Shown in pieces: positions 2 to 12,179 of a DNA stretch of 64,000 bases. A program made the translations under genes and the position numbers. Origin of the DNA: Clostridia bacterium (GTDB lineage Bacteria > Bacillota > Clostridia > Oscillospirales > CAG-272). Location: assembly GCA_017532025.1 (NCBI GenBank), contig JAFXJX010000090.1, forward strand, positions 9,910-73,909. Reading direction: 5' to 3'. Position 1 is the first letter of the stretch. Every line of letters begins with the position of its first letter. A model generated the notes under the pieces. It was given only the letters and a program-made list of their open reading frames with translations. It was not told the origin of the DNA and ran no database searches.

Positions 2-3000
2 CATGCCTTTGTTCCGCACCAAACCATCTCCCCGACAGGTCACACCGAAATCACTGACCCTCGCGTAGAGCCCACCTGCACCGAAACAGGGCTTACCGAG
101 GGCAAGCACTGCTCGGTTTGCCACACGATTCTCAAAGCACAAACCGTACTTGACGCGCTTGGACACAGCGTCACCGTAACACCCGGCTATGCGCCCACCT
201 GTACCAAAGAAGGTCTGCAGGAAGGCAGACATTGCTCAAGATGTGATCAGACTCTGCAAGAGCAGACCGTATTGCCCCCCACGGGTCATACCGTCGTTAC
301 CGTAACGGGCACGCCTGCCACCTGTACCGAAATCGGCAGAAGCGATGCCGAATACTGCTCGGTCTGCAACGAAACCCTCTCTCTGCAAACCGTCCTGCCT
401 GCACTCGGACACGATTATGTCGACCACGTCTGCACGCGTTGTCAGCATGAGATTCACGACAGCGAAGGATTGAGCTTCACCTCCAACGGTGACGGCACCT
501 GCTACGTCAGCGGCATGGGCTCCTGCCGAGATCGAGACCTGATCATCCCCGAAAAAGCGCCCAACGGTGATCTTGTAATCGGCATTGCCGCTTACGCTTT
601 TGACGGTACCGATATCACGTCGGTAACGATACCCAAAGGCGTTACCACCATCGGACACAGCGCCTTTGCGTATTGCTATTATCTCAAAAACGTCTTTCTG
701 CCCGACACCGTCACCGCCATCGACAGCTACGCCTTCTACTATAACGAAAGTCTTGCCTCTATCTCTCTGCCGAGTGGCGTGACCTCGATTGGCAGCTACA
801 CCTTCGCCTACTGCTTTAAGCTTGAAAGCGTCGTTCTGCCCGAGGGCATCACCGAAATCGGCGAGCGCACCTTCCAATCCTGCTCCTCCTTGCAATCAAT
901 TCAAATTCCCGCAAGTGTAAGCAGCATCGGATACTACGCCTTCGCATATTGCCACAAGCTGAAAGAAATCACCCTGCCCGAGGGTCTTACTCAATTGAGT
1001 GACGCCGTATTCAGCGAATGTACCGCACTGGAAAGCATCACCCTGCCCGAGGGTCTTACCGCAATCGGCGCAAACGCATTCTATTACTGCACGTCACTGA
1101 AATCCATCACTCTGCCCAAGAGTCTTACCTCCATCGGCGAACACGCATTCTATTACTGTGCGTCGCTGACATCCATCTCCCTGCCCGCAGGTCTTACCGA
1201 GATCGGTATTTATGCATTCTATGATTGCCTGTCACTGACTGAAATCACAATTCCCGCAAGCATAACCACCCTGCCGTCTTGCGTGTTCTACAATTGCTCG
1301 TCCTTGACGAAGGTCACCCTGCCCGAAGGTCTTGGCGAAATCGGCAACTACGCATTCTACAACTGCACACAGCTTGCCGAGGTTGTCCTCCCCGAAGGCT
1401 TGAAAACCATCAGCTCCCAGGCATTCTGCAACTGCTCAAAGCTTACCAAAATCATCATTCCCGACAGCGTAAACACCATCGGCTACAACGCGTTCAGCTA
1501 CTGCTACGCCCTCTCTTTCGTTCAGATCGGTTCAGGTGTCACCTCAGCCGGCAGCGATATTTTCTACTCCTGTTCGGGTCTTGAAAAAGCCATCGTCGGC
1601 AGTACCTGGAACTATATGTTTAACGGTTGCCGCGCGCTGAAGGAAGTAGAAATCACCGATACGGTTACGGTGATTCCTTACTCCGCATTCAACGGATGCT
1701 CCTCTTTGACGAAAGTGACCTTGCCGTCCACGCTGACCGAAATTCAAGCCTCGGCATTCAACAGCTGCTCCTCGCTGGAATCGATTCAGTTCCCCGAGAG
1801 CCTTACTACCCTGGGCAATTACGCTTTCGCATATTGCTCGTCTCTGACCGAACTCGTCATTCCCGATTCAGTCACCACCATTGATTACTGCGCATTCAGT
1901 TACTGCTACGCTTTGAAATCGGTTCAGGTTGGCACAGGCGTAAGCCGTGCGGGCAGTGAGATCTTCTACGGTTGCTCGTCGCTTTCCACCGCCGTTGTGG
2001 GCAGTGCTTGGGAATCGATGTTCCGCTACTGCACAGTCCTTTCCGACGTCACCATTCTGAACACCGTCACCGTGATTCCTCCATATATGTTCGGTGAATG
2101 CAGCTCTTTGAAGGAACTCACCCTGCCCGATAGCATCACCGAAATCGGCGCCTACGCATTCCATTACTGCGTGGCACTCACGTCTATCAACATTCCCGAA
2201 ACGGTCACTTCGATCGGCTCGTATGCCTTCAGATCCTGCTCCTCCCTGACCTCTGTCAGCATTCCCGACGGCGTTACCGTGCTGAGCCAGGGTCTCTTCT
2301 ACGAATGCACAGCTCTGACCGAAATCACGCTGCCCGAGGGTCTGATCGAAATCGGCTCTTACGCATTCTGCGGTTGTACTTCTCTTTCTGAGATCACTCT
2401 GCCAAACAGCCTCACCGCAATCGGAAACGGCGCGTTCAGCGCCTGCTCATCCCTGAAGAGCATCACGATCCCCGAAGGCATCACCGCCATTGGCGAATCC
2501 ACCTTCTCGGGCTGTTCCGGTCTTGAAAGCGTAAACCTTCCGAGTGGCATCACCGAAATCGGCTCTTACGCATTCAGCTCTTGCTATGCCCTGAAAGAAA
2601 TCACCCTGCCCGAAAACCTGCTGACACTGGGCAACCACGCCTTCTATGAGTGCATAGCGCTCAAAACGGTGGTCATCGGCGGCAAGCTGCGACAGATTGA
2701 CTCTTACGCATTCTATGGATGCTCATCGCTTGAAAGCATCAACCTGCCCGAGGGTCTCACCTTCATTGGCAACGATGCCTTCCACGGTTGCTCGTCGCTT
2801 GAGAGCATCAGCCTGCCCGAAGGTCTTACCACCATTGACAGTTACGCCTTCTATGGATGTAGCTCTCTTTCCGAGATCACCATTCCCGACAGCGTAACGC
2901 GCATTGGCAACTATGCCTTTGCCGACTGCTCTGCCCTGGCATCGGTCAACATCGGCACAGGCGTCACTTCTGCCGGTGACGGCATATTTGCATACTGCTC

Positions 3001-4480
3001 CAACATCAGAACCGCCGTCATCGGCAGCACTTGGTACAATATGTTCAACAGTTGCTCATCGTTGACCGACGCAACCATTCTGAATGGCGTTACCGACATT
3101 CCCTCGTACACCTTCCGGTATTGCTACGCGCTGAAAAACGTAACCATTCCGAGCAGCGTAACGAGCATTGGATACCACGCTTTTGAAAGCTGTACCTCGC
3201 TCACCGAAATCAGCATTCCCGACAGCGTAACGACGATTGGCAGCTACGCCTTCACAGGTTGTACCTCTCTTTCCGAAATCACCATTCCCAACAGCGTCAC
3301 CTCGATCGACTCGGGCGCCTTCGCGGGTTGCTCCTCTCTGGCATCGGTTTCGATCGGCACAGGCATCACCTCTGCCGGAAGCGACATCTTCTGGTATTGC
3401 ACAAGCCTGCAATCCGCCGTTGTGGGCAGCGCGTGGACCAATATGTTCTATCAGTGCAATGCCCTCACGGACGTCACCATTCTCAACAACGTCACCGTCA
3501 TTCCCTCGTATATGTTCTATGCTTGCTCCTCGCTCAAGAGCCTGGTCATCCCCGAGGGTGTCACCAAAATTGAGAATTACGCCTTCTGCGATTGCACCGC
3601 GTTGGAAGCTCTCTCTCTTCCCAACAGCTTAGAAACACTTGACTCCTCCGCCTTGCAGAACACAAACGCTTTGGTCTACAACGAGTATGACAACGCCTAC
3701 TATCTTGGCAACGAAACCAATCCTTGCGTCGTTCTGATCAAAGCAAAGAACACCGACATCACCTCGTGCGAGATCAACAACAGCACCAAACTCATTGCCA
3801 ACAATGCGTTTGCCTACTGCCGAAATCTCACCGAAATCACCGTCCCCGACAGCGTACTGACGATTGGTAGCTACGCCTTCTTTCAGTGTACCTCGCTCAG
3901 CACGGTTACGGTTGGCAACAGCCTGAAGCAGATCGAAAACCATGCGTTCTACCAGTGCTCGGCGCTCAAGAGCATCACGCTTCCCGAAACGCTCATCAGC
4001 ATCGGACAGTACGCCTTCCACGGTTGCTCGGCGCTTGAAAGCATCAATCTTCCCTCGGGTCTGACCAATTTGGGTACTTACGCTTTCTACGATTGCAACT
4101 CGCTCACTTCAATCGTCATTCCCGACAGCCTGACCTGTATCAACAGCTACACCTTCTACTGCTGCACCTCGCTGTCCGATGTGGTTCTGGGTAACGGCAT
4201 CACCGCCATCTACGGTTCTGCCTTCTATGGCTGCACCTCGCTTACCTCGATCGTTATCCCCGCAAACGTGCGTCAGATCTCCTCTTACGCTTTCTACGGC
4301 TGTTCGTCCCTGACCTCTGCCACATTTGCCCAAACAAGCGGTTGGTATTACGAAAAATGGTATCAGAACTGGTGGGGCAGCGGATATTACCAGCAGTATT
4401 CGATCAGCAAGCTCGGCAACGCCTCCACCGCCGCAGGCAACCTCACCTCGACCTACGCAAGCCAAACCTGGTATCGCTGA
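2..4480 (+). CDS. Giant surface protein, 5'-truncated by the window edge. It has N-terminal tandem Cys-rich modules followed by dozens of BspA-type leucine-rich repeats (LRR_5-like).
   Basis: Frame 2 has no stop from nt 2, so tracked ORF 272..4480 continues off the left edge. Nt 2-430 encode ~42-aa modules PTCTExG...CSxC...QTVLxALGH. The rest is the reiterated unit IPxxVTxIGxxAFxxCxxLxxIxLP. The stop at 4478-4480 is followed by a hairpin terminator. Confidence 0.85.
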   Translation, partial: HAFVPHQTISPTGHTEITDPRVEPTCTETGLTEGKHCSVCHTILKAQTVLDALGHSVTVTPGYAPTCTKEGLQEGRHCSRCDQTLQEQTVLPPTGHTVVTVTGTPATCTEIGRSDAEYCSVCNETLSLQTVLPALGHDYVDHVCTRCQHEIHDSEGLSFTSNGDGTCYVSGMGSCRDRDLIIPEKAPNGDLVIGIAAYAFDGTDITSVTIPKGVTTIGHSAFAYCYYLKNVFLPDTVTAIDSYAFYYNESLASISLPSGVTSIGSYTFAYCFKLESVVLPEGITEIGERTFQSCSSLQSIQIPASVSSIGYYAFAYCHKLKEITLPEGLTQLSDAVFSECTALESITLPEGLTAIGANAFYYCTSLKSITLPKSLTSIGEHAFYYCASLTSISLPAGLTEIGIYAFYDCLSLTEITIPASITTLPSCVFYNCSSLTKVTLPEGLGEIGNYAFYNCTQLAEVVLPEGLKTISSQAFCNCSKLTKIIIPDSVNTIGYNAFSYCYALSFVQIGSGVTSAGSDIFYSCSGLEKAIVGSTWNYMFNGCRALKEVEITDTVTVIPYSAFNGCSSLTKVTLPSTLTEIQASAFNSCSSLESIQFPESLTTLGNYAFAYCSSLTELVIPDSVTTIDYCAFSYCYALKSVQVGTGVSRAGSEIFYGCSSLSTAVVGSAWESMFRYCTVLSDVTILNTVTVIPPYMFGECSSLKELTLPDSITEIGAYAFHYCVALTSINIPETVTSIGSYAFRSCSSLTSVSIPDGVTVLSQGLFYECTALTEITLPEGLIEIGSYAFCGCTSLSEITLPNSLTAIGNGAFSACSSLKSITIPEGITAIGESTFSGCSGLESVNLPSGITEIGSYAFSSCYALKEITLPENLLTLGNHAFYECIALKTVVIGGKLRQIDSYAFYGCSSLESINLPEGLTFIGNDAFHGCSSLESISLPEGLTTIDSYAFYGCSSLSEITIPDSVTRIGNYAFADCSALASVNIGTGVTSAGDGIFAYCSNIRTAVIGSTWYNMFNSCSSLTDATILNGVTDIPSYTFRYCYALKNVTIPSSVTSIGYHAFESCTSLTEISIPDSVTTIGSYAFTGCTSLSEITIPNSVTSIDSGAFAGCSSLASVSIGTGITSAGSDIFWYCTSLQSAVVGSAWTNMFYQCNALTDVTILNNVTVIPSYMFYACSSLKSLVIPEGVTKIENYAFCDCTALEALSLPNSLETLDSSALQNTNALVYNEYDNAYYLGNETNPCVVLIKAKNTDITSCEINNSTKLIANNAFAYCRNLTEITVPDSVLTIGSYAFFQCTSLSTVTVGNSLKQIENHAFYQCSALKSITLPETLISIGQYAFHGCSALESINLPSGLTNLGTYAFYDCNSLTSIVIPDSLTCINSYTFYCCTSLSDVVLGNGITAIYGSAFYGCTSLTSIVIPANVRQISSYAFYGCSSLTSATFAQTSGWYYEKWYQNWWGSGYYQQYSISKLGNASTAAGNLTSTYASQTWYR

Positions 4481-4523
4481 TTCTCTTCCCCATCCTGTCT
4501 CGAAAGGATAACCAAAACAAAAA

Positions 4524-4556
4524 ACGGCTTACGGGAAATCCCGTAAGCCGTTTTGA
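4524..4556. terminator. Bidirectional rho-independent terminator
   Basis: CGGCTTACGGG-aaat-CCCGTAAGCCG stem-loop flanked by an A-run upstream and a T-run downstream. It lies between the convergent ends at 4480 (+) and 4568 (-). Confidence 0.7.
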
Positions 4557-4567
4557 TTTGATTCGGT

Positions 4568-4777
4568 TTATTTTACCGTTTTATAATCGGTTACAAGCTG
4601 AATATTGTCTACGTAAACAGGCTTGCCCACCATTTCGGAGGAGTTTGCGCTCATATAGAAGTAAATGCCCGAAATCGCAGAATTCGAATTGAGTTTGCTT
4701 GAGCCGCAGTACATATCCGAGATCGGAAAGGCGAAATAGCCCTTGTAGCCCGCAACCGAGCAGCTGTCGCCCGCGCC
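4568..4777 (-). pseudogene. Orphan 3' fragment (last 69 codons) of a paralog of the phosphoesterase lipoprotein gene 10173..12056
   Basis: It encodes GAGDSCSVAGYKGYFAFPISDMYCG...KPVYVDNIQLVTDYKTVK, colinear without gaps with the C-terminus of ORF 10173..12098. Upstream of GAGD the similarity stops and there is no catalytic domain or start context. Confidence 0.75.
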
Positions 4778-4795
4778 TATTTCGGTGATAGGTTT

Positions 4796-5137
4796 ACTCG
4801 GTATTACGAAACGGAGCGCAGAGAGATAACGCAAGAGCCAACGGCAAAGGAAATCTGCTTTGTTTGTATCCGTGAGGATGGCACGTATATCACGCCCCGA
4901 ACAATGCAACACACATCACGCATTATACATCTTGACTTGAACATAAGGGATTTTGATTATCATAGCCTACGGCACACCCACGCCACAGTTTTGCTTGAAA
5001 AGGGCGCACCGCTCAAATACATTCAGCAAAGGCTCGGACACAAAAAGATAGACATAACGATAAACGTGTATCAGCACTTGACCGATGACCTGCGGCAAAT
5101 GGGAACGGACATTCTCAACGGCATTTTTACCTCATAA
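4796..5137 (+). pseudogene. Tyrosine recombinase (phage-type integrase), C-terminal fragment only
   Basis: Translation reads ...ICFVCIREDGTYITPRTMQHTSRIIHLDLNIRDFDYHSLRHTHATVLLEKGAPLKYIQQRLGHKKIDITINVYQH. This is the HxLRHT...LGH...Y catalytic C-terminus. The N-terminal SAM-like domain and the box I Arg region are absent, and the frame runs straight into the 4568-4777 fragment. Confidence 0.8.
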
Positions 5138-5268
5138 CCGCTCTCTCAAAGTATGCCTTTTTATCCCTAACTACTCGGCAATTTTTATACAATCCCTCTC
5201 GGAGTAGTATAAACGGCTTATGAGCGCTTGAATGGTGCTTGTAAGCCGTACTATTTAGGGTAAACTAC

Positions 5269-5297
5269 TTGCAAAAAGCAGAAAACTGTGATATAAT
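5269..5297 (+). promoter_or_regulatory. Sigma-A-type promoter (TTGCAA-17-TATAAT)
   Basis: TTGCAA at 5269-5274, a 17-nt spacer, and TATAAT at 5292-5297. No ORF begins for about 240 nt downstream. Confidence 0.5.
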
Positions 5298-5487
5298 ATA
5301 TATGCCACATAATTCAATCAACAAATTTTACGGGATAACTCTCTAATTTTTTAGAGGGTTTTGTAACTATACCTTTTTTCATACGTCGATAATGGATTTG
5401 GCAAAAATGCGATTTCCGCTCGACGTGTGAAGGAGAGTATCCTGATTTGTTGAGAATTGTGTGGCAACAATGGAAACGCATTTTTCG

Positions 5488-5524
5488 GGTGCGTTCTCAT
5501 TGGAGCGCACCTTTTTTATTTTCA
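5488..5524 (+). terminator. Intrinsic terminator at the end of the 5300-5520 leader or small RNA
   Basis: GGTGCGTTC-tcattg-GAGCGCACC followed by TTTTTTATTTT. An upstream AACGCA...TGCGTT pairing shares the GCGTT segment and is a possible antiterminator. Confidence 0.55.
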
Positions 5525-5543
5525 GCGAAAGGAGGGAAAGACA

Positions 5544-5735
5544 ATGACTTTATACAATGAAGTTAAAATGCTTGATGAAAAAATCAATGCCATTGATATG
5601 CCTTTTGATAAGGGTCTACCGCTTCTTCAAAATCTGTTATGGGAAATCGCAGACCGTCACAATACAACAGGTCCAGAAGAATTAAGAATGTATTTTGATA
5701 TGAAATCAGCAGAATTAAAAAATAGCAAGGAGTGA
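5544..5735 (+). CDS. Small hypothetical protein (63 aa)
   Basis: ATG at 5544 is preceded by AAGGAGGGA. It was chosen over the tracked upstream start at 5457. No recognisable motif. Confidence 0.5.
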   Translation: MTLYNEVKMLDEKINAIDMPFDKGLPLLQNLLWEIADRHNTTGPEELRMYFDMKSAELKNSKE

Positions 5736-5808
5736 CAAAATGAAAAAAATAATTGCATTGTTTGAACTGCCCCAAATTTCACAGGATGTGTTTTTTCTTT
5801 CCTACCCG

Positions 5809-5837
5809 TTGACACCGTACCGCCGAGATGCTATACT
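5809..5837 (+). promoter_or_regulatory. Sigma-A-type promoter (TTGACA-17-TATACT)
   Basis: TTGACA at 5809-5814, a 17-nt spacer, and TATACT at 5832-5837, about 40 nt upstream of the RBS AGGAGGA and the ATG at 5877. Confidence 0.6.
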
Positions 5838-5876
5838 GTAACCACAAGCCACCGTTTTACCACAGGAGGAGAAAAT

Positions 5877-7166
5877 ATGATGAAAACGCTTCTGAAAATA
5901 GCTCTCTGTCTGATTATGATCAGTTTCGCCGTAATGGCAATCACATCCTGCGACAGCACGAAAGAAAGCAAAGGACTTGAATTTCACCTCAGCGATAACG
6001 ACACCTACGAGGTGATCGGCATCGGTGAGTGCAAGGATCTTGATATTATCATTCCAAAAAAGTACAAAGGCAAACCGGTAATCATGATCGATGACTCTGC
6101 TTTTAGCGGATGCGACGAGATCACAAGCGTGACCATCCCCGACGGCGTTGCGTTTATTGGCGAATTTGCATTTTCGAACTGTGAAGAATTGACTGAAATC
6201 AACCTTCCTGCCAGCATCCTGACCATCGGAAACAACGCATTTCAAGGTTGTGAAGATCTTGCCAAAGTCAACATTGCCGATCTTGCAGCTTGGTGCGATA
6301 TCACTTTCTATAACATTTTTTCCAATCCCTTGTATTTTGCCCAAAAACTATCTGTAAAAGGAGAAAGCGTCACCGATCTTGTCATTCCCAACGGTGTCAC
6401 AAGCATTGCAAACTACGCCTTTGCCGGCTGTAATCGCCTGACAAGCGTGACAATTCCCGACGGTGTGACAAAAATCGGTAACAGCGCCTTTTTGCTCTGC
6501 AGTCGATTGGAGCACGTCACACTCGGAAACGACCTGACCGATGTGGGGATCGGTGCTTTTGCTTCCTGTGACGATCTTGCCTATACCGAATATGAAAACG
6601 GAAACTATCTCGGCAACGAAAACAATCCCTACCAAGTATTGATCAGTATCCCAAGCACCGATATTTCGTCTTTCGTTATCCATCCCAACACCAAAGCCAT
6701 TGGCGGCGGCTCTTTTTCCTACTGCAGCAAACTGACCGCCATCACTCTCCCCGAGGGTCTTGTGTTTGTTGGAAGAAACGCGTTTTCCAATTGCCGCGCA
6801 CTCACACAGATCACAATTCCCGATAGCGTAACCACGATCGGATACAACGCCTTTGGTGATTGCTACGAACTAGCAAACGTCACGTTTGGCAAGAACTTAA
6901 AGACCATTGACACCGGCGCATTTGCATTCTGCGGCAATCTCAAAACCGTAACCTTCCCCGATGGTCTTGAATCAATCGGCTATCAAGCATTTTGTTGGAC
7001 CAACCTTAAAAGTGTCACAATCCCCCAAAGCGTAACAACGATTGCTAAGAGTGCTTTTGGCGGTAGTCCCACAATCTACTGCCAAGCATCGCGCCAACCC
7101 GAGGGCTGGGATAACGAATGGGCAGAGTCGGGTTGCACTGTCATTTGGAACGCCAAAGAGAACTGA
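5877..7166 (+). CDS. Lipoprotein with BspA-type leucine-rich repeats
   Basis: Signal peptide plus lipobox (MMKTLLKIALCLIMISFAVMAITSC), then repeated IPDGVxxIGxxAFxxCxxLxxVTxP units as in the giant LRR protein. Confidence 0.85.
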   Translation: MMKTLLKIALCLIMISFAVMAITSCDSTKESKGLEFHLSDNDTYEVIGIGECKDLDIIIPKKYKGKPVIMIDDSAFSGCDEITSVTIPDGVAFIGEFAFSNCEELTEINLPASILTIGNNAFQGCEDLAKVNIADLAAWCDITFYNIFSNPLYFAQKLSVKGESVTDLVIPNGVTSIANYAFAGCNRLTSVTIPDGVTKIGNSAFLLCSRLEHVTLGNDLTDVGIGAFASCDDLAYTEYENGNYLGNENNPYQVLISIPSTDISSFVIHPNTKAIGGGSFSYCSKLTAITLPEGLVFVGRNAFSNCRALTQITIPDSVTTIGYNAFGDCYELANVTFGKNLKTIDTGAFAFCGNLKTVTFPDGLESIGYQAFCWTNLKSVTIPQSVTTIAKSAFGGSPTIYCQASRQPEGWDNEWAESGCTVIWNAKEN

Positions 7167-7176
7167 CACGCCATTC

Positions 7177-7200
7177 GGGTCATTCGTGAATGACCCCTAC
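7177..7200 (-). repeat. REP-like unit (GTAG + hairpin), read on the minus strand as GTAGGGGTCATTCACGAATGACCC
   Basis: GGGTCATTC-gt-GAATGACCC hairpin immediately followed by CTAC on the plus strand, 11 nt after the stop at 7166. Confidence 0.5.
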
Positions 7201-7223
7201 AAAATCAAATCGAATAAAAAGTT

Positions 7224-7270
7224 GGACACATCATTTGGGACTCTTCCCTTTTGATGTGTCCAATATTTTT
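7224..7270. terminator. Bidirectional terminator hairpin, copy 1 of the GGACACATCA stem family
   Basis: GGACACATCA (7224-7233) pairs with TGATGTGTCC (7252-7261). It has an A-rich 5' flank and the 3' flank AATATTTTT, and lies between convergent genes. Confidence 0.6.
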
Positions 7271-7325
7271 GCGGTAGAAAGTATGAAACAAGAGCAAAAG
7301 CATAACCGCTCGTTCTGAGCCACTC

Positions 7326-7661
7326 TCACTCCACAACTGTTACGTTTCCGTTTTCGTCGATGATTTCAATCAGGATTTCATCAGCGTATTTTTTATCGTA
7401 ATAATACTTACTGTCTCTCAGTAAGGTAATCAACTTTTCAATGACATCGTCATATTTCTTTTGACGCAAAACCTCTAATCCAACGATTTGAATATGGATT
7501 GGATCACAGCCCACCATATCGGTCATGCAATCCCAAAAAGCATCCCAATTGCATCCGTAATAATCGGGAAAATCAAGCTCCTTTTGGATTACCTCATGCA
7601 TTTGACGGTAGTATTTAACGTTAGTAAAATCAAGTCGATAGATTTCTTTATATTCGTACAT
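7326..7661 (-). CDS. Barstar-family ribonuclease inhibitor (immunity protein)
   Basis: MHEVIQKELDFPDYYGCNWDAFWDCMTD matches the barstar core [28 protein letters not shown] (recalled). It starts 9 nt after the toxin stop, with RBS AAGGAGAG. Confidence 0.9.
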   Translation of the reverse strand: MYEYKEIYRLDFTNVKYYRQMHEVIQKELDFPDYYGCNWDAFWDCMTDMVGCDPIHIQIVGLEVLRQKKYDDVIEKLITLLRDSKYYYDKKYADEILIEIIDENGNVTVVE

Positions 7662-7670
7662 ATACTCTCC

Positions 7671-8210
7671 TTATCTTGTTATCTCGTAGTATGTTTGATA
7701 GTGATCATAGGTAACAAAGAGAAGACCGTCACTCGAAAACAAAATACGATCATGTCCCCTATACCCTCCATAATAGTTTATATCTGCTTCATACCATGTT
7801 CTATCCGACGCAGATGGCAATTTTCCATCATTGTTTTTGTAAATCTTTCCACCCATCATTTTTCCCGGAGCGACCTCGCCAAGATTCCCTTTTTTTGAAG
7901 ACCACCCCAAGTGTTTTGCCTCATTCTGAGAAATATAATACTCCGGCAACCGATTCTCGTACATCAAGCAATAATCCGCTCCGTTGATTCCCTCAAGCGT
8001 TGCCGTGCCAACTGCTTTGGTTCGCATCGGCACGATACGGCATTTTCCGTTGATATGTAACGGAATATATACACTCTCGTCCACATCATACGGAAAAATC
8101 GTTCCGTGTTTCGCGGCACATTCTTTGCAGGTTGTCAAACTCAAATTCGACATCCAGTTTTTCCAATTCTTGCTGTTCCCTTCAAGGTTTTTGTCAGGCG
8201 ATATTTGCAT
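7671..8210 (-). CDS. Barnase-family (RNase N1/T1 superfamily) toxin with a short N-terminal MuF/SPP1-gp7-like segment
   Basis: The C-terminal 110 aa read LPEYYISQNEAKHLGWSSKKGNLGEVAPGKMMGGKIYKNNDGKLP..RTWYEADINY..GYRGHDRILFSSDGLLFVTYDHYQTYYEITR. This aligns along its length with B. amyloliquefaciens barnase, including the catalytic Glu (EADIN) and His (DHYQT). The N-terminus TTCKECAAKHGTIF...PLHINGKCRIVPM resembles the end of the Phage_Mu_F domain. No signal peptide. Confidence 0.9.
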   Translation of the reverse strand: MQISPDKNLEGNSKNWKNWMSNLSLTTCKECAAKHGTIFPYDVDESVYIPLHINGKCRIVPMRTKAVGTATLEGINGADYCLMYENRLPEYYISQNEAKHLGWSSKKGNLGEVAPGKMMGGKIYKNNDGKLPSASDRTWYEADINYYGGYRGHDRILFSSDGLLFVTYDHYQTYYEITR

Positions 8211-8223
8211 ATTCTCACTCCTT

Positions 8224-8251
8224 ATTATACTGTTTTTTTCACCAATGTCAA
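8224..8251 (-). promoter_or_regulatory. Sigma-A-type promoter for the toxin-immunity pair (TTGACA-16-TATAAT)
   Basis: Minus strand reads TTGACAttggtgaaaaaaacagTATAATaaggagtgagaatATG. Confidence 0.55.
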
Positions 8252-8382
8252 CTCATCTCATTCGGTACACCTATTATCACATTCTCAAAACACAAATAGT
8301 ACTACCTTTTAAGCGGACTATGTAACAGCAAGTATAAAACAAATAGGGGCGATTCACGAAGTACCCACCCCATATAATCAAA

Positions 8383-8429
8383 CAAAAAAACGGACACATC
8401 ATTTTAGGGTTTTCCTATATGATGTGTCC
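8383..8429 (-). terminator. Terminator hairpin, copy 2 of the GGACACATCAT stem family
   Basis: GGACACATCAT (8392-8402) pairs with ATGATGTGTCC (8419-8429). On the minus strand it is followed by TTTTTTTG. It lies downstream of gene 8542..9294. Confidence 0.6.
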
Positions 8430-8541
8430 GATATTTTCATGTCAAAAAAGATATTTTACAATGAAAAAGCTGAAAAAGACGGTTCAATAAACAGTCTTTG
8501 AAAAAGACCGCAATATGTGTTTCATTTGCTTTTTGGATAAA

Positions 8542-9294
8542 TTATTTAATCTCAATTTCGTATTCTGCGTTTTTGATTTCTTTTACGTCGTAAGCTATCT
8601 TTTCCTGCTTGTAGGACATCTTTTCTTGTTCATAAGCCATCTTTTCCTGAGTTTGGCTCATTTTTTCCATAGCTTCTTTCTGCTGCTGTATACGCTGGTT
8701 AAGAGCGGCAAACTGTTCTTGCTGCATTTGAATTGCTTTTTCCATCGCACGCTTGTTTTCTTGATCTAACAGATATGCTTCGTAGAGATTAATTGCTTCT
8801 TTAAGAGTATCTGCACGACAATTTTCAACGGCTTCATACATAAAAGCAACTGCGTGGAGATCTCTATATTTCGACGGTATAAAACTTACTTGAGCGTCAA
8901 ATGCATCGGCATATTCGGAAAGAAAAGCATCAATTTGATTGATTGTTTCTTTCAATCGGGGAACTTCGGTATGGAGGGCGTATGTCATTTTCTCCAAATC
9001 AGATTCGATTTCTTTTTTCTGCTTCAAATAAGAACGCACAGTAAAAAAAATACATACACCGGTTATTACTAAACCAAAAGAACCGTAAACGTAAAGAGAG
9101 AGAGACCCCAGAACGATAGAAATTATAATACCTGTCATACAATTTGGTTTTTTATCGCGTAGCTTCTCCAATTCTGAAGTTATTTCATTAATTCTGCTTG
9201 CACATTTGCTTCTTTTTTTTAATTCGTCAGATCGACAATTCAACGCAACAAACGCGTCTCGCATATTCATCAATAATTCCTGTCTTGTGTTCAT
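8542..9294 (-). CDS. Hypothetical membrane protein with two TM helices and a long C-terminal coiled coil
   Basis: Hydrophobic hairpin CMTGIIISIVLGSLSLYVYGSFGLVITGVCIFFTV. The C-terminus is rich in E/K/Q heptads and ends in the triplicated QEKM(A/S)Y unit. No family recognised. Confidence 0.7.
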   Translation of the reverse strand: MNTRQELLMNMRDAFVALNCRSDELKKRSKCASRINEITSELEKLRDKKPNCMTGIIISIVLGSLSLYVYGSFGLVITGVCIFFTVRSYLKQKKEIESDLEKMTYALHTEVPRLKETINQIDAFLSEYADAFDAQVSFIPSKYRDLHAVAFMYEAVENCRADTLKEAINLYEAYLLDQENKRAMEKAIQMQQEQFAALNQRIQQQKEAMEKMSQTQEKMAYEQEKMSYKQEKIAYDVKEIKNAEYEIEIK

Positions 9295-9495
9295 ATTCTA
9301 CCTCCTAAAAATAAGAAAAACGAAAATACCCCAACCGAGGCTGATGCCTAAAACGAAAACCTCGGTCAGAAGTTAACTCTTTTGAGTTATTTTTATCATA
9401 GCAGATTTTCAAAACAATGTCAACCCTAAAGGGGTAATTTTATTCCCTGTAATCGGTTAAAATATCATTAACCCATTGGAGTTAGGAGAGGTACT

Positions 9496-9738
9496 ATGAG
9501 GGTTAATGAAGCCGTCAAAATGCGCATTTTGGAGTTATGCCAACAAAACAACATAACCTTGAATAAGCTATCCACAATCTGCGGTATCACGCAATCAACC
9601 TTGAACAACATCGTCAGCGGACGCAATGCCACCACTACTGTATCCACGATTCAAAAGATCTGCGACGGTTTGAATATTACGATTGTTGACTTTTTTTCCT
9701 CGCCGATTTTTGATCATTTAGAACAGGAAATCAAATAA
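9496..9738 (+). CDS. XRE-family helix-turn-helix transcriptional regulator (80 aa)
   Basis: ITLNKLSTICGITQSTLNNIVSGRN is a typical HTH_3 core. RBS is GGAGAGG. The gene is divergent from 8542..9294. Confidence 0.85.
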   Translation: MRVNEAVKMRILELCQQNNITLNKLSTICGITQSTLNNIVSGRNATTTVSTIQKICDGLNITIVDFFSSPIFDHLEQEIK

Positions 9739-9780
9739 CAGTCTTTTCCCAATCTTCCGCACATCATCATGAATGACCCC

Positions 9781-10055
9781 TACTACGATGTTTCAACTAA
9801 AACTTTACATTTGTCTATACCGCGAGATCCGACGCCAACCTGTAAGCAAGCGACTTGCTTGCAAGTCGAAGCGCCCTGCGCTACGCTTGGGTTTCGACTG
9901 CGTCCGCCCGTGTCATCCTGAGCATTGGAGCTGAAGCTCCCGTCGAACTGCGTAGCAGTGCCGAGCGTAAGCGATGGCAGGATCTCGGGCGGACTTCGCT
10001 CAAGATGACACGCGGCACGAAACTGTGTCAAGTTTTAGTTGAAACACGGTACTAC
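9781..10055. repeat. MITE-like nested-palindrome repeat, copy A
   Basis: Terminal inverted repeat TGTTTCAACTAAAACTT (9789-9805) / AAGTTTTAGTTGAAACA (10030-10046). Internal motifs are CCGCGAGATCC / GGATCTCGGGCGG and GTGTCATCCTGAGC / GCTCAAGATGACAC. Near-identical copies occur at 22412 and 44575. Confidence 0.7.
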
Positions 10056-10067
10056 AAAAGCAAAAAA

Positions 10068-10113
10068 CAGACACATCATTTCGGAAAAAACCGTCATGAT
10101 GTGTCTGTTTTTT
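10068..10113. terminator. Bidirectional terminator hairpin, copy 3 of the (G/A)GACACATCAT stem family
   Basis: CAGACACATCAT (10068-10079) pairs with ATGATGTGTCTG (10096-10107). It is flanked by an A-run and TTTTTT, and lies downstream of minus gene 10173. Confidence 0.6.
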
Positions 10114-10172
10114 ACGTCTTATTTTCTTTCAACCCTACCGCTATTGCAACGGACGGGATCATGGTTCAAAAA

Positions 10173-12056
10173 TCATTTCACCGTTTTATAGTCAGCAACA
10201 AGCTGAATGTTGTCAACATAAACAGGCTTGTTTGCCATATCGGAAGAGAGCGCACTCATATAGAAGTAAATGCCCGAAATGGCGGAGTTTGCATTGAGTT
10301 TGGTTGTGCCGCAGTACATATCGTCAATCGGGAAGGCAAAATAACCCTTGTAACCCGCAACCGAGCAGTTGTCGCCTGCACCAAAGCAGCCGTCAGCTCC
10401 CATTGTCTTTTCCACCCATGTATCACTGCCGTCAGCCTTGTAGAAGAACTTACAGCCTTCTCCCTTGTCGTCGGCTCTGAAAGGACTTTCGGTTTTGCCG
10501 TCGGTCAAAAGACCAAAGCAAGCTTTTCTGAAATCAAGGTTGTTGGTGTCAAGATCCATCCAAACAACAAGATATTTGTTGTTGCCAAGAAGACCGGCCT
10601 TGGGAAGATGCCACTTCACTTCCATGTTGTTGTCCTGCACAGGGTTTTCATACCACTGGGTACGGCAAGCAGCAAGTGCGCTTGAGCCGTTAACGCCCTT
10701 ACCGGTAGCAACGGTAGCGGAAACGGTTTCGATATTCTTCAAGCTGCCGTCGAGATGTCCGAGGACAAAATCATCCTTTTTCATGCTTTCAAAATCGGTA
10801 AGCATACCCGAAAGTGCCTCTGTCGGCTTTTCCGTCTGCTTGTTCAAGTAGCTGATGTAGGTTTCAAAATTCACAGGATCGCTTTCCTTGATCACAAACA
10901 CACGCGCGCCCATCATGTCTTCTTGATGATAGGTCAATTTGCTGAGATTGGAGCTAAAGCAAAGCTTGATACCGCCGTAGTTGACCATGTAGTCGTTAAT
11001 GTGGTCATGACCGAAGACACAGGCTTTGATATCGCCGCGGTAGCGCATAGCTTCATAGAAGCCGGCGTTATGGCAACCTGCCGAAACGTATTCGTTCTTC
11101 TGACCTGTCCATTCAAGCTTCGAGCGGTTTTCCCAAGCGGTATAGGTTTCCTGAAGCGGAATGTGCATTGCCATCAGACCGGGCACAAGACCGCCGTTTT
11201 CTTTTTCAAGCATACGGGATACCTTGAGATACCATTCGATCTGGTCATAGTGAACGAAGCTATACTGTACGTTGCCTTGGTTAATACCGGAATAGGAAGA
11301 TTTGCTATCGCCGAACAGCGCTGTCTTCTCATCATTTGTGAGATAGTTGCCGGAATCCACGCCCCAAATAGCAAACTTGAGTTCATCATCCTTGCCATAA
11401 AGCGGAATCACGTAGTTGCCAACGCCGGTGAGCGCCTTATCCCCTTCTTTGGAAAGACAGTGCGGATAGGATTCGTAGATCTTTTGTTGTTCTTCAAGTG
11501 TGAGTCTCTCTTTGGGCGAGCCTCGCAGCTCAGAGTCATGGTTGCCGAACACGTGCATCCAATAGATGTTGTTTTCTTCAAAATAGTCCACAACACCGCC
11601 GAGCGTGGTTTTGAACTCGGTAAAATTGAGAATGTTGGCATCGGTCACAACATCACCAAGCAAGATGATAAGGTCGGGTTTTTCTCTTTCAACAATCTTC
11701 TTAACGTTAGCAAGAACGCCTTCTGTTTGTCTTCTTGCCAAGTGAAGATCGGCAAGGCAGAGCACGCGGAATTCTCCGTCGTCGCCAAAGGACAGCTTGG
11801 TCTTGTTCGCCAAGATCTCATCCAGCTCGCTTGTCGTGACAACAGGTGTTTCTGTGGTTGTCGCAGCCGTGGTTATCACAGCCGTGGTTATCACAGCCGT
11901 TGTGGTTGCAGCTGTTGTTTCTGTTGCAGCAGTTGTTGTGGGTGCTGTGCTGTCGGTTGATGCCTTGGTTGTGGTCTTGGCGCCGCCACCACCACAGCTT
12001 GCAAAAACAAGAGCAAGCGCAACAAGAAGAAGACACACAGAGAGTAACTTTTTCAT
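10173..12056 (-). CDS. Lipoprotein with a calcineurin-like metallophosphoesterase domain and a C-terminal domain of unknown function
   Basis: Start moved to MKKLLSVCLLLVALALVFASC (GGAGG RBS, lipobox). A Thr-rich linker follows, then motifs DLH, GD, GNHD and GHDH. Confidence 0.85.
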   Translation of the reverse strand: MKKLLSVCLLLVALALVFASCGGGGAKTTTKASTDSTAPTTTAATETTAATTTAVITTAVITTAATTTETPVVTTSELDEILANKTKLSFGDDGEFRVLCLADLHLARRQTEGVLANVKKIVEREKPDLIILLGDVVTDANILNFTEFKTTLGGVVDYFEENNIYWMHVFGNHDSELRGSPKERLTLEEQQKIYESYPHCLSKEGDKALTGVGNYVIPLYGKDDELKFAIWGVDSGNYLTNDEKTALFGDSKSSYSGINQGNVQYSFVHYDQIEWYLKVSRMLEKENGGLVPGLMAMHIPLQETYTAWENRSKLEWTGQKNEYVSAGCHNAGFYEAMRYRGDIKACVFGHDHINDYMVNYGGIKLCFSSNLSKLTYHQEDMMGARVFVIKESDPVNFETYISYLNKQTEKPTEALSGMLTDFESMKKDDFVLGHLDGSLKNIETVSATVATGKGVNGSSALAACRTQWYENPVQDNNMEVKWHLPKAGLLGNNKYLVVWMDLDTNNLDFRKACFGLLTDGKTESPFRADDKGEGCKFFYKADGSDTWVEKTMGADGCFGAGDNCSVAGYKGYFAFPIDDMYCGTTKLNANSAISGIYFYMSALSSDMANKPVYVDNIQLVADYKTVK

Positions 12057-12179
12057 ATCCAAACCTCCAAAGCGTGATTTGTAAAATTTTTCGTACAATT
12101 AAGCAAAGACCGAAACAAATCACATTGTTGCTTTATTGTAGCACACTTTCCAAACAAATTCAAGTGTTTTTCAAAAAAT

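What the first reader, a model, noticed from the sequence alone, without database searches (positions are those of the whole stretch)
7326..8251. Stand-alone MuF-fragment::barnase toxin with cognate barstar, without any secretion signal
The 179-aa product joins about 70 aa resembling the C-terminal end of the phage Mu F / SPP1 gp7 head-morphogenesis domain (TTCKECAAKHGTIF...PLHINGKCRIVPM) to a complete barnase domain. Both catalytic residues of barnase are conserved. A barstar homolog follows 9 nt downstream. MuF-fused polymorphic toxins are known from temperate phages as large proteins. Here only the junction and the toxin survive, yet the pair keeps its own near-consensus promoter and strong RBSs inside a dead island. 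Three readings are possible. It may be an orphan toxin cassette kept for recombination onto a full-length MuF protein elsewhere. It may be a domesticated addiction or abortive-infection-like module. Or it may be a relic retained only because losing the immunity gene first is lethal.
Basis: partly seen in the sequence, partly recalled or inferred. Interest (0 to 1): 0.65.

Follow-up and report, generated by a model that had tools for sequence, protein, structure and literature searches.

The report
Phage-less mini-MuF barnase/barstar cassette
A gut Clostridia chromosome carries a small RNA-cutting toxin gene with its antidote gene; the toxin starts with a zinc-binding piece inherited from a phage head protein, and the pair is an ordinary member of a large, mobile and apparently undescribed family rather than a one-off wreck.

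Summary
Window 7671-8210 (-) encodes a 179-aa protein. Residues 11-63 are homologous to the last ~50 residues of the phage MuF domain (hhalign 98.2%). Residues 74-179 are a true barnase (~55% identical to solved barnase, rmsd 1.7 A). A barstar gene follows 9 nt downstream. A 12/12 sigma-70 promoter precedes the pair.

The "lone surviving junction" reading does not hold. The short architecture is a conserved family: 577 clusters, and at least 561 loci in species-representative genomes. Nearly all are gut Clostridia, and almost none are in phages. The zinc ligands, the catalytic residues, the adjacent barstar and the promoter are all kept across the family. The cassette is often bracketed by direct repeats that include terminator hairpins, as it is here.

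This genome bin has no full-length MuF and no portal gene. Most carrier genomes also lack MuF.

Best reading: a complete, self-contained, mobile toxin-immunity cassette sitting in a decayed 5.6-kb integrative island. I cannot settle whether it acts inside the cell (addiction or phage abortion) or is a weapon loaded into phage heads. It is a new variant of known kinds, of moderate interest, and this scan has already met it in many genomes.

The parts
8224..8251 (-). Sigma-70 promoter TTGACA-16-TATAAT (12 of 12). The -10 hexamer directly abuts the ribosome-binding site.
   Evidence: A promoter matching at least 11 of 12 positions lies upstream of 54% of homologous cassettes, against 2% of random positions. 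The distance from -10 to the start codon is 11-15 nt in 31 of 40 such cassettes.
7671..8210 (-). Toxin gene, 179 aa: mini-MuF zinc knuckle followed by barnase.
8022..8180 (-). Mini-MuF domain (residues 11-63). It is homologous to the last ~50 residues of the MuF/SPP1 gp7 domain. Putative zinc ligands are C28, C31, H52 and C57.
   Evidence: hhalign 98.2%, E 3.4e-14. PF04233 positions 68-111. C28, C31 and G36 are invariant and H52 and C57 are at least 90% conserved. BFVD Foldseek top hits are MuF-like minor capsid proteins over ~50 columns, but with E at least 0.1.
7674..7991 (-). Barnase domain (residues 74-179). E141, R151, R155 and H170 correspond to barnase E73, R83, R87 and H102. Q95 stands at the K27 position and K122 at the D54 position.
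7326..7661 (-). Barstar immunity gene, 111 aa, with its own AAGGAG site overlapping the toxin stop codon.
   Evidence: PF01337 E 8.8e-19. Barstar lies within 120 nt downstream in 72 of 74 homologous loci.
7208..7269 (.). Hairpin repeat copy 1 (GGACACATCAT..ATGATGTGTCC with flanking T/A runs). It is a bidirectional terminator just downstream of barstar.
   Evidence: family D3 and I5. There are only 3 copies in the genome, all in this island.
8376..8437 (.). Hairpin repeat copy 2, just upstream of the toxin promoter. Together with copy 1 it brackets the ~1.1-kb cassette.
   Evidence: The same hairpin flanks cassettes in L032 and L055. In metagenomes X1 and X2 the DNA beyond position 8405 is replaced by other sequence.
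4570..4777 (+). Left copy of the 208-nt direct repeat. It is a displaced 3' end of the phosphoesterase gene and marks the island border.
   Evidence: family D1 (83% identity, spacing 5605).
10175..10382 (+). Right copy of the direct repeat. It is the present 3' end of the 641-aa metallophosphoesterase gene (10173-12098, -).
4904..5137 (+). Tyrosine-recombinase fragment (77 aa; only positions 117-170 of the 172-position Pfam model).

Best explanation
The pair is a complete, self-contained and horizontally mobile toxin-immunity cassette of about 1.1 kb: promoter, toxin, immunity gene, terminator. It belongs to a large family of gut-Clostridia cassettes.

The toxin is a barnase-type guanyl RNase made in the cytoplasm without any export signal. 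Co-transcribed barstar blocks its active site one-to-one.

The N-terminal ~60 residues are a small Cys/His domain, presumably zinc-binding. They descend from the C-terminal end of the phage head protein MuF. This is the point where MuF polymorphic toxins carry their toxin domains. The domain is kept under selection, so it is a working part and not debris.

The consensus promoter sits directly against the toxin's ribosome-binding site. The mRNA therefore probably starts inside or just after that site. This would throttle toxin translation relative to barstar, which has a full internal site (inferred).

In this genome the cassette sits between two copies of a terminator hairpin inside a 5.6-kb integrative island whose integrase is truncated.

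Shown here: the homologies, the family, its conservation, its phage-less contexts and the repeats that bracket it.

Inferred: RNase activity, inhibition by barstar, zinc binding and the biological role.

I put about 0.85 on 'complete mobile family cassette, not a relic'. For the role, I think action from inside the producing cell is slightly more likely (about 0.4). That would be post-segregational addiction and/or abortive infection, with the MuF knuckle binding nucleic acid or a phage head or portal component. Export as a weapon comes next (about 0.33). The confidence value given for this explanation (0.6) is a compromise between the well-supported core and the open role.
For: Identity of the parts.

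Family size and uniform length: 577 clusters of 146-206 aa. In the all-length search, only proteins of about 175-220 aa match across the whole query. Longer proteins match the barnase part only, and they are PT-TG, RHS, LysM or unassigned proteins.

Conservation: S13, C28, C31, G36, H52 and C57 in the N-domain. E73 and R83 equivalents in 44 of 44 members, R87 and H102 equivalents in 43 of 44.

Barstar lies within 120 nt downstream in 72 of 74 loci.

Autonomous expression: a promoter matching at least 11 of 12 positions in 54% of loci against 2% of controls. The -10 hexamer abuts the ribosome-binding site in 31 of 40. An identical 213-nt contig from an RNA library spans the toxin/barstar junction.

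Mobility: presence is patchy, in 1 of 9 congeneric species and about 5% of 401 family genomes. Flanking direct repeats occur in 28 of 69 loci against 8 of 313 shifted controls.

Phage-less setting: 10 Pfam-annotated neighbourhoods contain no phage gene. There are 0 hits in 50,697 phage records and 4 in 2.9 million IMG/VR contigs. The own genome has no MuF and no portal. 18 of 21 carriers have no full-length MuF.
Against: No activity, expression level or zinc content was measured.

Barstar-type inhibitors are stable and bind extremely tightly (established knowledge of barnase-barstar). The gene order is toxin first. Neither is typical of type II toxin-antitoxin addiction. No PADLOC defence model matches.

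12 of 74 loci carry two to four diverged barstar genes. That is the hallmark of toxins exchanged between cells.

This particular copy has Q at the barnase K27 position, so it may be attenuated.

The genomes compared are mostly metagenome bins, which often lose prophages. Absence of MuF or portal genes is therefore weak evidence. The RNA contig could be DNA carry-over.
Confidence: 0.6

Rival explanations
1. Inter-strain weapon. The mini-MuF knuckle is a minimal head- or portal-targeting tag. The constitutively made toxin would be loaded in trans into heads of whatever suitable phage or phage-like particle assembles in the cell, then injected into neighbours. Those neighbours survive only if they hold a matching barstar.
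For: The N-domain is exactly the conserved C-terminal piece of MuF, a head protein that binds the portal in SPP1 (PMC5576092). Zhang et al. 2012 list MuF as a trafficking mode for Tox-Barnase (PMC3482391). The gene order is toxin then immunity. Diverged barstar genes form arrays. Other barnase relatives are nearly all exported toxins. The consensus promoter is very strong. Two of the four viral-contig copies examined lie in prophage DNA. Carriers are mildly and non-significantly enriched for MuF phages (3 of 21 against 21 of 380).
Against: 18 of 21 carriers, and this genome, lack a full-length MuF. This genome also lacks both portal families. None of 10 annotated neighbourhoods has phage genes. 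The one well-resolved prophage that carries the cassette (L104) is HK97-like, with no room for a MuF gene between the portal and protease-capsid genes. Which part of MuF binds the portal is not known to me.
Confidence: 0.33
2. This copy is a decaying relic. It would be a leftover of a MuF-toxin prophage gene, kept only because losing barstar before the toxin would kill the cell, with no present function.
For: It sits in an island with a truncated integrase. Q replaces the barnase K27 equivalent. N-terminally truncated MuF-toxin ORFs next to scaffold-like genes exist in relatives (L119 and L120). Some family copies look split or truncated in ORF calls, or show stop codons in read-through alignments, although some of those stops may lie upstream of the true start codon.
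Against: The reading frame, both ribosome-binding sites, the 12/12 promoter, the Cys/His ligands and the catalytic Glu, His and Arg residues are all intact. Near-identical copies occur in about 20 metagenome runs from 10 studies (laid on four of them). The same architecture is conserved down to 36% identity across hundreds of species. The K27-to-Q change comes with a Lys at the neighbouring D54 position, so it could be a compensated swap (inference).
Confidence: 0.08
3. Orphan toxin/immunity cassette stored for recombination onto a full-length MuF (or other polymorphic toxin) gene elsewhere in the genome.
For: Polymorphic toxin loci commonly keep such cassettes (PMC3482391). The N-terminal segment could serve as the homology arm.
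Against: This genome (80% complete) has no full-length MuF, no second barnase and no sequence sharing the segment. The cassette has its own start codon, ribosome-binding site and consensus promoter, conserved family-wide. The conserved N-terminus starts upstream of the MuF-like part (S13, W19).
Confidence: 0.03

Closest known systems
Barnase-barstar of Bacillus amyloliquefaciens (and binase of B. pumilus); Pfam PF00545 / PF01337; PDB 1a2p, 1brs
   Same: The RNase domain is ~55% identical, with the same fold (rmsd 1.7 A) and the same catalytic Glu, His and two Arg. The inhibitor is a barstar homologue with the DxxxD helix.
   Different: Barnase is secreted with a Sec signal peptide and has no N-terminal domain. 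Here there is no signal and a MuF-derived Cys/His domain precedes the RNase. The two genes form one tight operon on a mobile cassette. This copy has Q at the K27 position.
MuF polymorphic toxins of temperate phages (Zhang et al. 2012, PMC3482391; Jamet et al. 2017, PMC5576092)
   Same: A MuF-derived N-terminus is joined to a C-terminal toxin domain, followed by a small immunity gene. Barnase is listed among toxin domains trafficked by MuF.
   Different: Those proteins carry the whole MuF domain. 96% of muf genes lie in prophages or prophage remnants, next to portal and terminase genes. Here only the last ~50 residues of MuF remain, the protein is ~180 aa, and the cassette sits among housekeeping genes with no phage genes nearby.
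Type II toxin-antitoxin modules with RNase toxins of the BECR fold (RelE-type)
   Same: A two-gene operon on mobile DNA with a cytoplasmic RNase held by a protein inhibitor, often next to other toxin-antitoxin pairs (Fic/Phd, MazE).
   Different: The toxin gene comes first. Only the Barstar family matched the inhibitor in Pfam, so it shows no recognisable DNA-binding domain; barstar is a stable, very tight-binding globular protein (established knowledge). Extra immunity genes occur in arrays. No PADLOC defence model matches.
Colicin-type nuclease bacteriocin operons (toxin-immunity, cytoplasmic synthesis, release as a complex)
   Same: The toxin is made without a signal peptide together with a very tight immunity protein. 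The order is toxin then immunity, under a strong promoter.
   Different: No lysis gene, no receptor-binding or translocation domains, and no SOS box were looked for or seen. The host is Gram-positive.

Membership tests
Barnase / microbial guanyl-specific RNase (PF00545) | Sequence and fold of the barnase domain | tested here: met
   PF00545 E 3.2e-13. Profile against PDB barnase E 8e-44. Foldseek TM 0.9, rmsd 1.7 A, ~55% identity.
Barnase / microbial guanyl-specific RNase (PF00545) | Catalytic Glu73 and His102 with Arg83 and Arg87 | tested here: met
   E141, H170, R151 and R155 are present. They are conserved in 43-44 of 44 family members.
Barnase / microbial guanyl-specific RNase (PF00545) | Lys27 (transition-state binding) paired with Asp54 | tested here: not met
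   This protein has Q95 and K122 at those positions. 38 of 44 relatives keep K27. The effect on activity is unknown.
Barnase / microbial guanyl-specific RNase (PF00545) | RNase activity | not testable with these tools
   Needs an enzyme assay.
Barstar (PF01337) | Barstar fold/sequence with the acidic DxxxD helix, encoded next to a barnase | tested here: met
   PF01337 E 8.8e-19. The YYGCNWDAFWDC motif has D40 and D44. The gene starts 9 nt downstream of the toxin. Binding itself was not tested.
MuF polymorphic toxins (MuF1-4 families of Jamet et al. 2017) | A complete MuF domain at the N-terminus | tested here: not met
   Only PF04233 positions 68-111 of 112 are matched. hhalign aligns residues 11-63 to the last 50 of 209 MuF columns.
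MuF polymorphic toxins (MuF1-4 families of Jamet et al. 2017) | Encoded in a prophage or remnant next to portal and terminase genes | tested here: not met
   There is no SPP1-type or HK97-type portal and no other MuF in this genome bin. None of 10 annotated homologous neighbourhoods has phage genes. Caveat: the bin is 80% complete.
MuF polymorphic toxins (MuF1-4 families of Jamet et al. 2017) | C-terminal toxin domain of at least 100 aa followed by a small immunity ORF | tested here: met
   The barnase domain is ~106 aa. The barstar gene encodes 111 aa and starts 9 nt downstream.
Type II toxin-antitoxin systems | Two-gene operon of toxin and protein inhibitor | tested here: met
   An RNA-library contig spans the junction.
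Type II toxin-antitoxin systems | Labile antitoxin with a DNA-binding domain that autoregulates the operon | tested here: inconclusive
   At E below 0.01 only the Barstar family matches the inhibitor; one weak hit lies below Pfam's cut-off (RsgI_M, E 0.042). So no recognisable DNA-binding domain was found. Lability and regulation cannot be tested here.
Known anti-phage defence systems (PADLOC-DB 2.0) | Match to a defence-system protein model | tested here: not met
   No hit for the toxin or barstar at E up to 1.

The most novel reading that the evidence does not exclude
The ~60-residue MuF knuckle is a minimal handle for phage head or portal components, and the cassette exploits phages it does not encode.

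One version: the constitutively made barnase is loaded in trans into heads of any compatible phage assembling in the cell and is injected into the next host. That would make it a hitch-hiking weapon.

The other version: the knuckle senses or binds incoming phage head proteins, so that the RNase is unleashed or the progeny are poisoned. That would make it a decoy-type defence.

The conserved overlap of promoter and ribosome-binding site would then set the toxin-to-barstar ratio so that the producer stays safe.
Probability: 0.2. Interest if true: 0.8.

Novelty: new variant of a known kind. Interest (0 to 1): 0.45.

Why it matters
MuF-fused toxins are thought to be delivered inside phage heads, but nobody knows which part of MuF does the targeting. 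A natural family that keeps only the last ~50 residues of MuF in front of a toxin marks a candidate minimal functional unit. That makes the question directly testable: does this knuckle bind portal, procapsid or nucleic acid?

The family is also very common in gut and rumen Clostridia, present in about 5% of species in this bacterial family. It may therefore shape strain competition or phage resistance in these communities.

The conserved fusion of a consensus promoter to the ribosome-binding site is a simple candidate device for setting a safe toxin-to-antidote ratio when the toxin gene comes first.

This single copy is an ordinary member of the family.

Tried and rejected
1. A search for a full-length MuF, a second barnase or a second barstar in the own genome found only the locus itself, plus one insignificant barstar hit at E 0.185.

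2. tblastn against 50,697 phage records found nothing. Plasmid hits were mostly SLH-domain barnase proteins of Bacillus matching the RNase part only.

3. The long proteins in the all-length search are not MuF-barnase. Those scanned are PT-TG, RHS or LysM proteins, or have no other Pfam match.

4. A search with residues 1-76 alone for other C-terminal partners returned only 22 candidates. All that carry a Pfam annotation are barnase-fused; three have none. The method is too insensitive to be informative.

5. For the N-domain alone, the sequence profile against PDB gave only chance-level hits to zinc ribbons (E about 1). Foldseek of its own model (pLDDT 88) against PDB found nothing. No solved relative exists.

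6. Foldseek of the whole model against BFVD put MuF-like minor capsid proteins at the top, over ~50 columns with probabilities up to 0.99. All E values were at least 0.1, so this is supportive only.

7. Empty-site hunt in metagenome contigs: joints skipping 7249-8375 or 7271-8453 have only 22-25 matching letters on one side. The hairpin itself is about ten times over-represented in depth. These joints most likely come from other hairpin copies, so I do not count them.

8. The hairpin is not a genome-wide REP element. There are only 3 copies, all in the island.

9. PADLOC gave no hit for the pair.

10. The literature search found no paper describing this short phage-less form. One 2026 bioRxiv preprint on BECR RNases could not be opened. 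The library covers open-access papers only.
Full report
**What is there**

On the minus strand, a perfect sigma-70 promoter (TTGACA-16-TATAAT, 8251-8224) is followed directly by AAGGAG and an ATG at 8210. The 179-aa ORF ends at 7671. Nine nucleotides later, in the same frame and behind a second AAGGAG, a 111-aa ORF runs from 7661 to 7326.

Pfam places residues 79-177 of the first protein in the Ribonuclease (barnase) family (E 3.2e-13). It places the second protein in Barstar (E 8.8e-19).

A profile of 44 relatives matches solved barnase over almost its whole length (E 8e-44). The AlphaFold model (pLDDT 91.5, pTM 0.86) superposes on barnase with rmsd about 1.7 A at ~55% identity.

The equivalents of barnase E73, R83, R87 and H102 are E141, R151, R155 and H170. 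This copy has Q95 at the K27 position and K122 at the D54 position, a combination seen in only 2 of 44 relatives. Barstar keeps the acidic DxxxD helix (D40, D44; read).

**The N-terminal piece**

Taken alone, the window's protein matches MuF models only weakly: PF04233 E 0.083, TIGR01641 E 3.3e-4, phrog_115 E 2.8e-6. The match is always to the last ~45 positions of the model.

At family level the assignment is firm. 28 of 44 members hit PF04233 (best 4.6e-7). I also built a profile of 49 N-terminal domains and compared it with four full-length MuF proteins taken from prophages of the same bacterial family. That gives 98.2% probability and E 3.4e-14, with residues 11-63 aligned to the last 50 MuF residues.

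The motif is S-x5-W ... T-C-x2-C-x3-H-G-K-I ... H-x2-C-x-C. S13, C28, C31 and G36 are invariant. H52 and C57 are at least 90% conserved. That pattern fits a small zinc-binding knuckle (inference).

No solved structure resembles it. Predicted viral structures that resemble it are MuF-like minor capsid proteins, but only with weak scores. The first 27 residues are hydrophilic, so there is no signal peptide (read from the sequence).

**It is a family, not an accident**

The word-indexed search found 577 clusters. The 120 best listed are 146-206 aa long, and almost all are 170-200 aa.

In the exhaustive representative search, every protein matching the query from about residue 11 to the end is about 175-220 aa long. 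Longer proteins match only from about residue 80. Those I scanned are PT-TG, RHS or LysM proteins, or have no other Pfam match. None is a MuF protein.

A scan of one genome per species gave at least 561 confirmed loci. Nearly all are gut or rumen Clostridia bins: Oscillospiraceae, Acutalibacteraceae and 'Eubacteriales'. One cultured isolate appears, Hydrogeniiclostridium mannosilyticum.

In the 80 best loci, barstar follows within 120 nt in 72 of the 74 that have room. 12 loci have two to four barstar genes, and a few have tandem toxin-barstar pairs.

Mean pairwise identity is 0.39 for the knuckle, 0.49 for the linker and 0.56 for barnase.

**Not a phage gene**

- There is no hit in 50,697 phage records.
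- There are four hits in 2.9 million IMG/VR contigs.
- Ten Pfam-annotated neighbourhoods on long contigs show only housekeeping and accessory genes: SpoIVB, NrdD, RecA, Ffh/S16, tRNA synthetases, microcompartment genes, glycosidases and other toxin-antitoxin pairs. None has a phage structural gene within 7-8 kb.

Jamet et al. found that 96% of muf genes lie in prophages or prophage remnants (PMC5576092), so this family behaves very differently.

Where the cassette is in a phage (L104), it lies on the opposite strand between the tape-measure and major-tail genes of an HK97-like prophage. That phage has no room for a MuF gene. In L106 it lies beside the tail-endopeptidase and lysin region.

**Co-occurrence with MuF phages**

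I sampled 401 genomes of the window's bacterial family. By my count from the tables, about 21 carry the full mini-MuF-barnase and about 24 carry a full-length MuF. Only 3 carry both. That is 14% of carriers against 5.5% of non-carriers, a difference too small to rely on with these numbers.

The window's own genome bin (1.99 Mb, 80% complete) has no other MuF, no other barnase, no SPP1-type portal and no HK97-type portal. Bins often lose prophages, so this is weak negative evidence.

**A mobile expression unit**

Presence is patchy: 1 of 9 other species of the same genus carries it.

A promoter matching the consensus in at least 11 of 12 positions lies upstream of the toxin in 54% of loci (28 are perfect), against 2% of random positions.

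In 31 of 40 such loci, only 11-15 nt separate TATAAT from the start codon, and the ribosome-binding site fills that gap. The transcript therefore probably begins inside or just after that site. This would weaken toxin translation, while barstar keeps a full internal site. It would be a simple way to keep the antidote in excess although its gene comes second (inference; needs 5'-end mapping).

Direct repeats flank the cassette in 28 of 69 loci, against 8 of 313 shifted control positions. They usually include a terminator-like hairpin, and each genome has its own sequence. L032 and L055 share the window's hairpin.

**Local setting**

The cassette lies between two copies (77% alike) of a 62-nt hairpin, at 7208-7269 and 8376-8437. 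A third copy at 10053-10114 ends the phosphoesterase gene. These are the only three copies in the genome.

All of this sits in a 5.6-kb stretch of lower G+C DNA. The stretch is bracketed by 208-nt direct repeats, 83% alike, which are two versions of the 3' end of the 641-aa metallophosphoesterase gene. That is the signature of an element integrated into a gene's 3' end.

Its integrase is reduced to a 77-aa C-terminal fragment. The island also holds a BspA-type LRR lipoprotein, a 250-aa coiled-coil membrane protein and an XRE regulator.

**Evidence from public sequencing runs**

The cassette stretch (7300-8300) is held by about 20 gut metagenome runs from 10 studies. Laying four of them on 4300-10600 showed the island itself, near-identical, in all four.

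In runs X1 and X2, a strain keeps the toxin cassette (7 differences in 876 nt) but has 859 other letters in place of 8406-9371. The break falls inside hairpin copy 2. The hairpins therefore seem to mark exchange points.

One RNA library holds an identical 213-nt contig across the toxin/barstar junction, at 7546-7758. This is weak evidence for co-transcription, because DNA carry-over cannot be excluded.

**Origin**

In the same bacterial family I found other ORFs that begin with only the C-terminal MuF knuckle and continue into other C-terminal regions:
- Two are stand-alone with no phage-like gene alongside (L118, L121). L121 is followed by a 66-aa Cys-rich ORF.
- Two sit next to scaffold-like genes, as expected of prophage remnants (L119 with DUF6883, and L120).
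- One MuF-deaminase fusion is cut by a contig end (L124).

An origin of the barnase family from an N-terminally truncated MuF toxin is therefore plausible.

**What it does**

The core is well supported: a cytoplasmic barnase held by barstar, on an autonomous mobile cassette. The role is open.

For an intracellular role (addiction, abortive infection): there is no export signal, no export or phage machinery nearby or in most carrier genomes, and the cassette sits among other toxin-antitoxin pairs.

For a weapon: the gene order is toxin first. The inhibitor type is stable and binds very tightly. Diverged barstar genes form arrays. Other barnase relatives are exported toxins. The retained piece comes from a head protein that binds the portal in SPP1 (PMC5576092). 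Zhang et al. 2012 already list MuF among the trafficking modes of Tox-Barnase and mention 'simple barnase-barstar gene pairs' (PMC3482391).

I give 0.4 to the intracellular role, about 0.33 to the weapon, and small odds to relic (0.08) and recombination cassette (0.03).

**Novelty**

Barnase-barstar pairs and MuF-toxin fusions are both known. In the open-access papers I could search, I found no description of the short, phage-less form. Nor did I find its conserved knuckle, its promoter/ribosome-binding-site overlap or its repeat-bracketed cassettes described.

Earlier notes of this scan report the same family in at least 23 other genomes with similar conclusions. Those are unchecked AI notes, not independent support, but they show that this instance is one of many. 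I rate it a new variant of a known kind, of moderate interest.

Noticed in passing
window 4570-4777 and 10175-10382 (island 4570-10382): A 208-nt direct repeat (83% identity) duplicates the 3' end of the 641-aa metallophosphoesterase gene. It brackets a 5.6-kb island of lower G+C DNA with a truncated integrase (4904-5137). This is an integrative element inserted into a gene's 3' end and now immobilised.
   Followed up: partly
window 7208-7269, 8376-8437, 10053-10114: Three copies of a 62-nt terminator-like hairpin (stem GGACACATCAT/ATGATGTGTCC) end three successive minus-strand transcription units. They are the only copies in this genome. In metagenomes the hairpin is about ten times over-represented in depth, and the same hairpin flanks homologous cassettes in L032 and L055.
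   Followed up: partly
window 8406-9371: In metagenome runs X1 and X2, a strain with a near-identical toxin cassette has 859 other letters in place of this segment, which holds the 250-aa coiled-coil membrane protein gene. The break lies inside hairpin copy 2, which suggests cassette exchange at the hairpins.
   Followed up: partly
window 8210-8229 and homologous loci L023-L102: The -10 hexamer is followed directly by the ribosome-binding site, with 11-15 nt from TATAAT to the start codon in 31 of 40 cassettes. The toxin mRNA therefore probably lacks a full ribosome-binding site. This may be a device that keeps toxin translation below that of barstar.
   Followed up: partly
L118 1505-2104; L121 1432-2334; L119; L120; L124: Other ORFs in the same bacterial family start with only the C-terminal MuF knuckle and continue into other C-terminal regions (unknown domains, DUF6883, a BURPS668_1122-type deaminase). 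Two are stand-alone and two sit beside scaffold-like genes. The knuckle may be a recurrent N-terminal module of small toxins.
   Followed up: partly
L104 8542-9464: In an IMG/VR contig the cassette sits as an opposite-strand insert between the tape-measure and major-tail genes of an HK97-like prophage that has no MuF gene.
   Followed up: partly
It lies divergent to an 80-aa XRE regulator. Function unknown.
   Followed up: no
window 9781-10054: An inverted repeat (29 nt, 86%) at 9781-9809 / 10026-10054 encloses ~270 nt. The depth of this stretch in metagenomes is 5-10 times that of its flanks, as expected of a multi-copy MITE-like element. Internal-deletion variants are seen in several runs.
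   Followed up: no
window 2-4480 (+) and 5877-7166 (+): Two BspA-type leucine-rich-repeat proteins: one of more than 1,492 aa that runs off the window, and one 429-aa lipoprotein inside the island.
   Followed up: no
window 7528-7577: A 50-nt stretch inside barstar, encoding the conserved YYG.NWDAFWDC helix, has about four times the flanking depth in metagenomes. It is shared with other barstar genes of the community.
   Followed up: no
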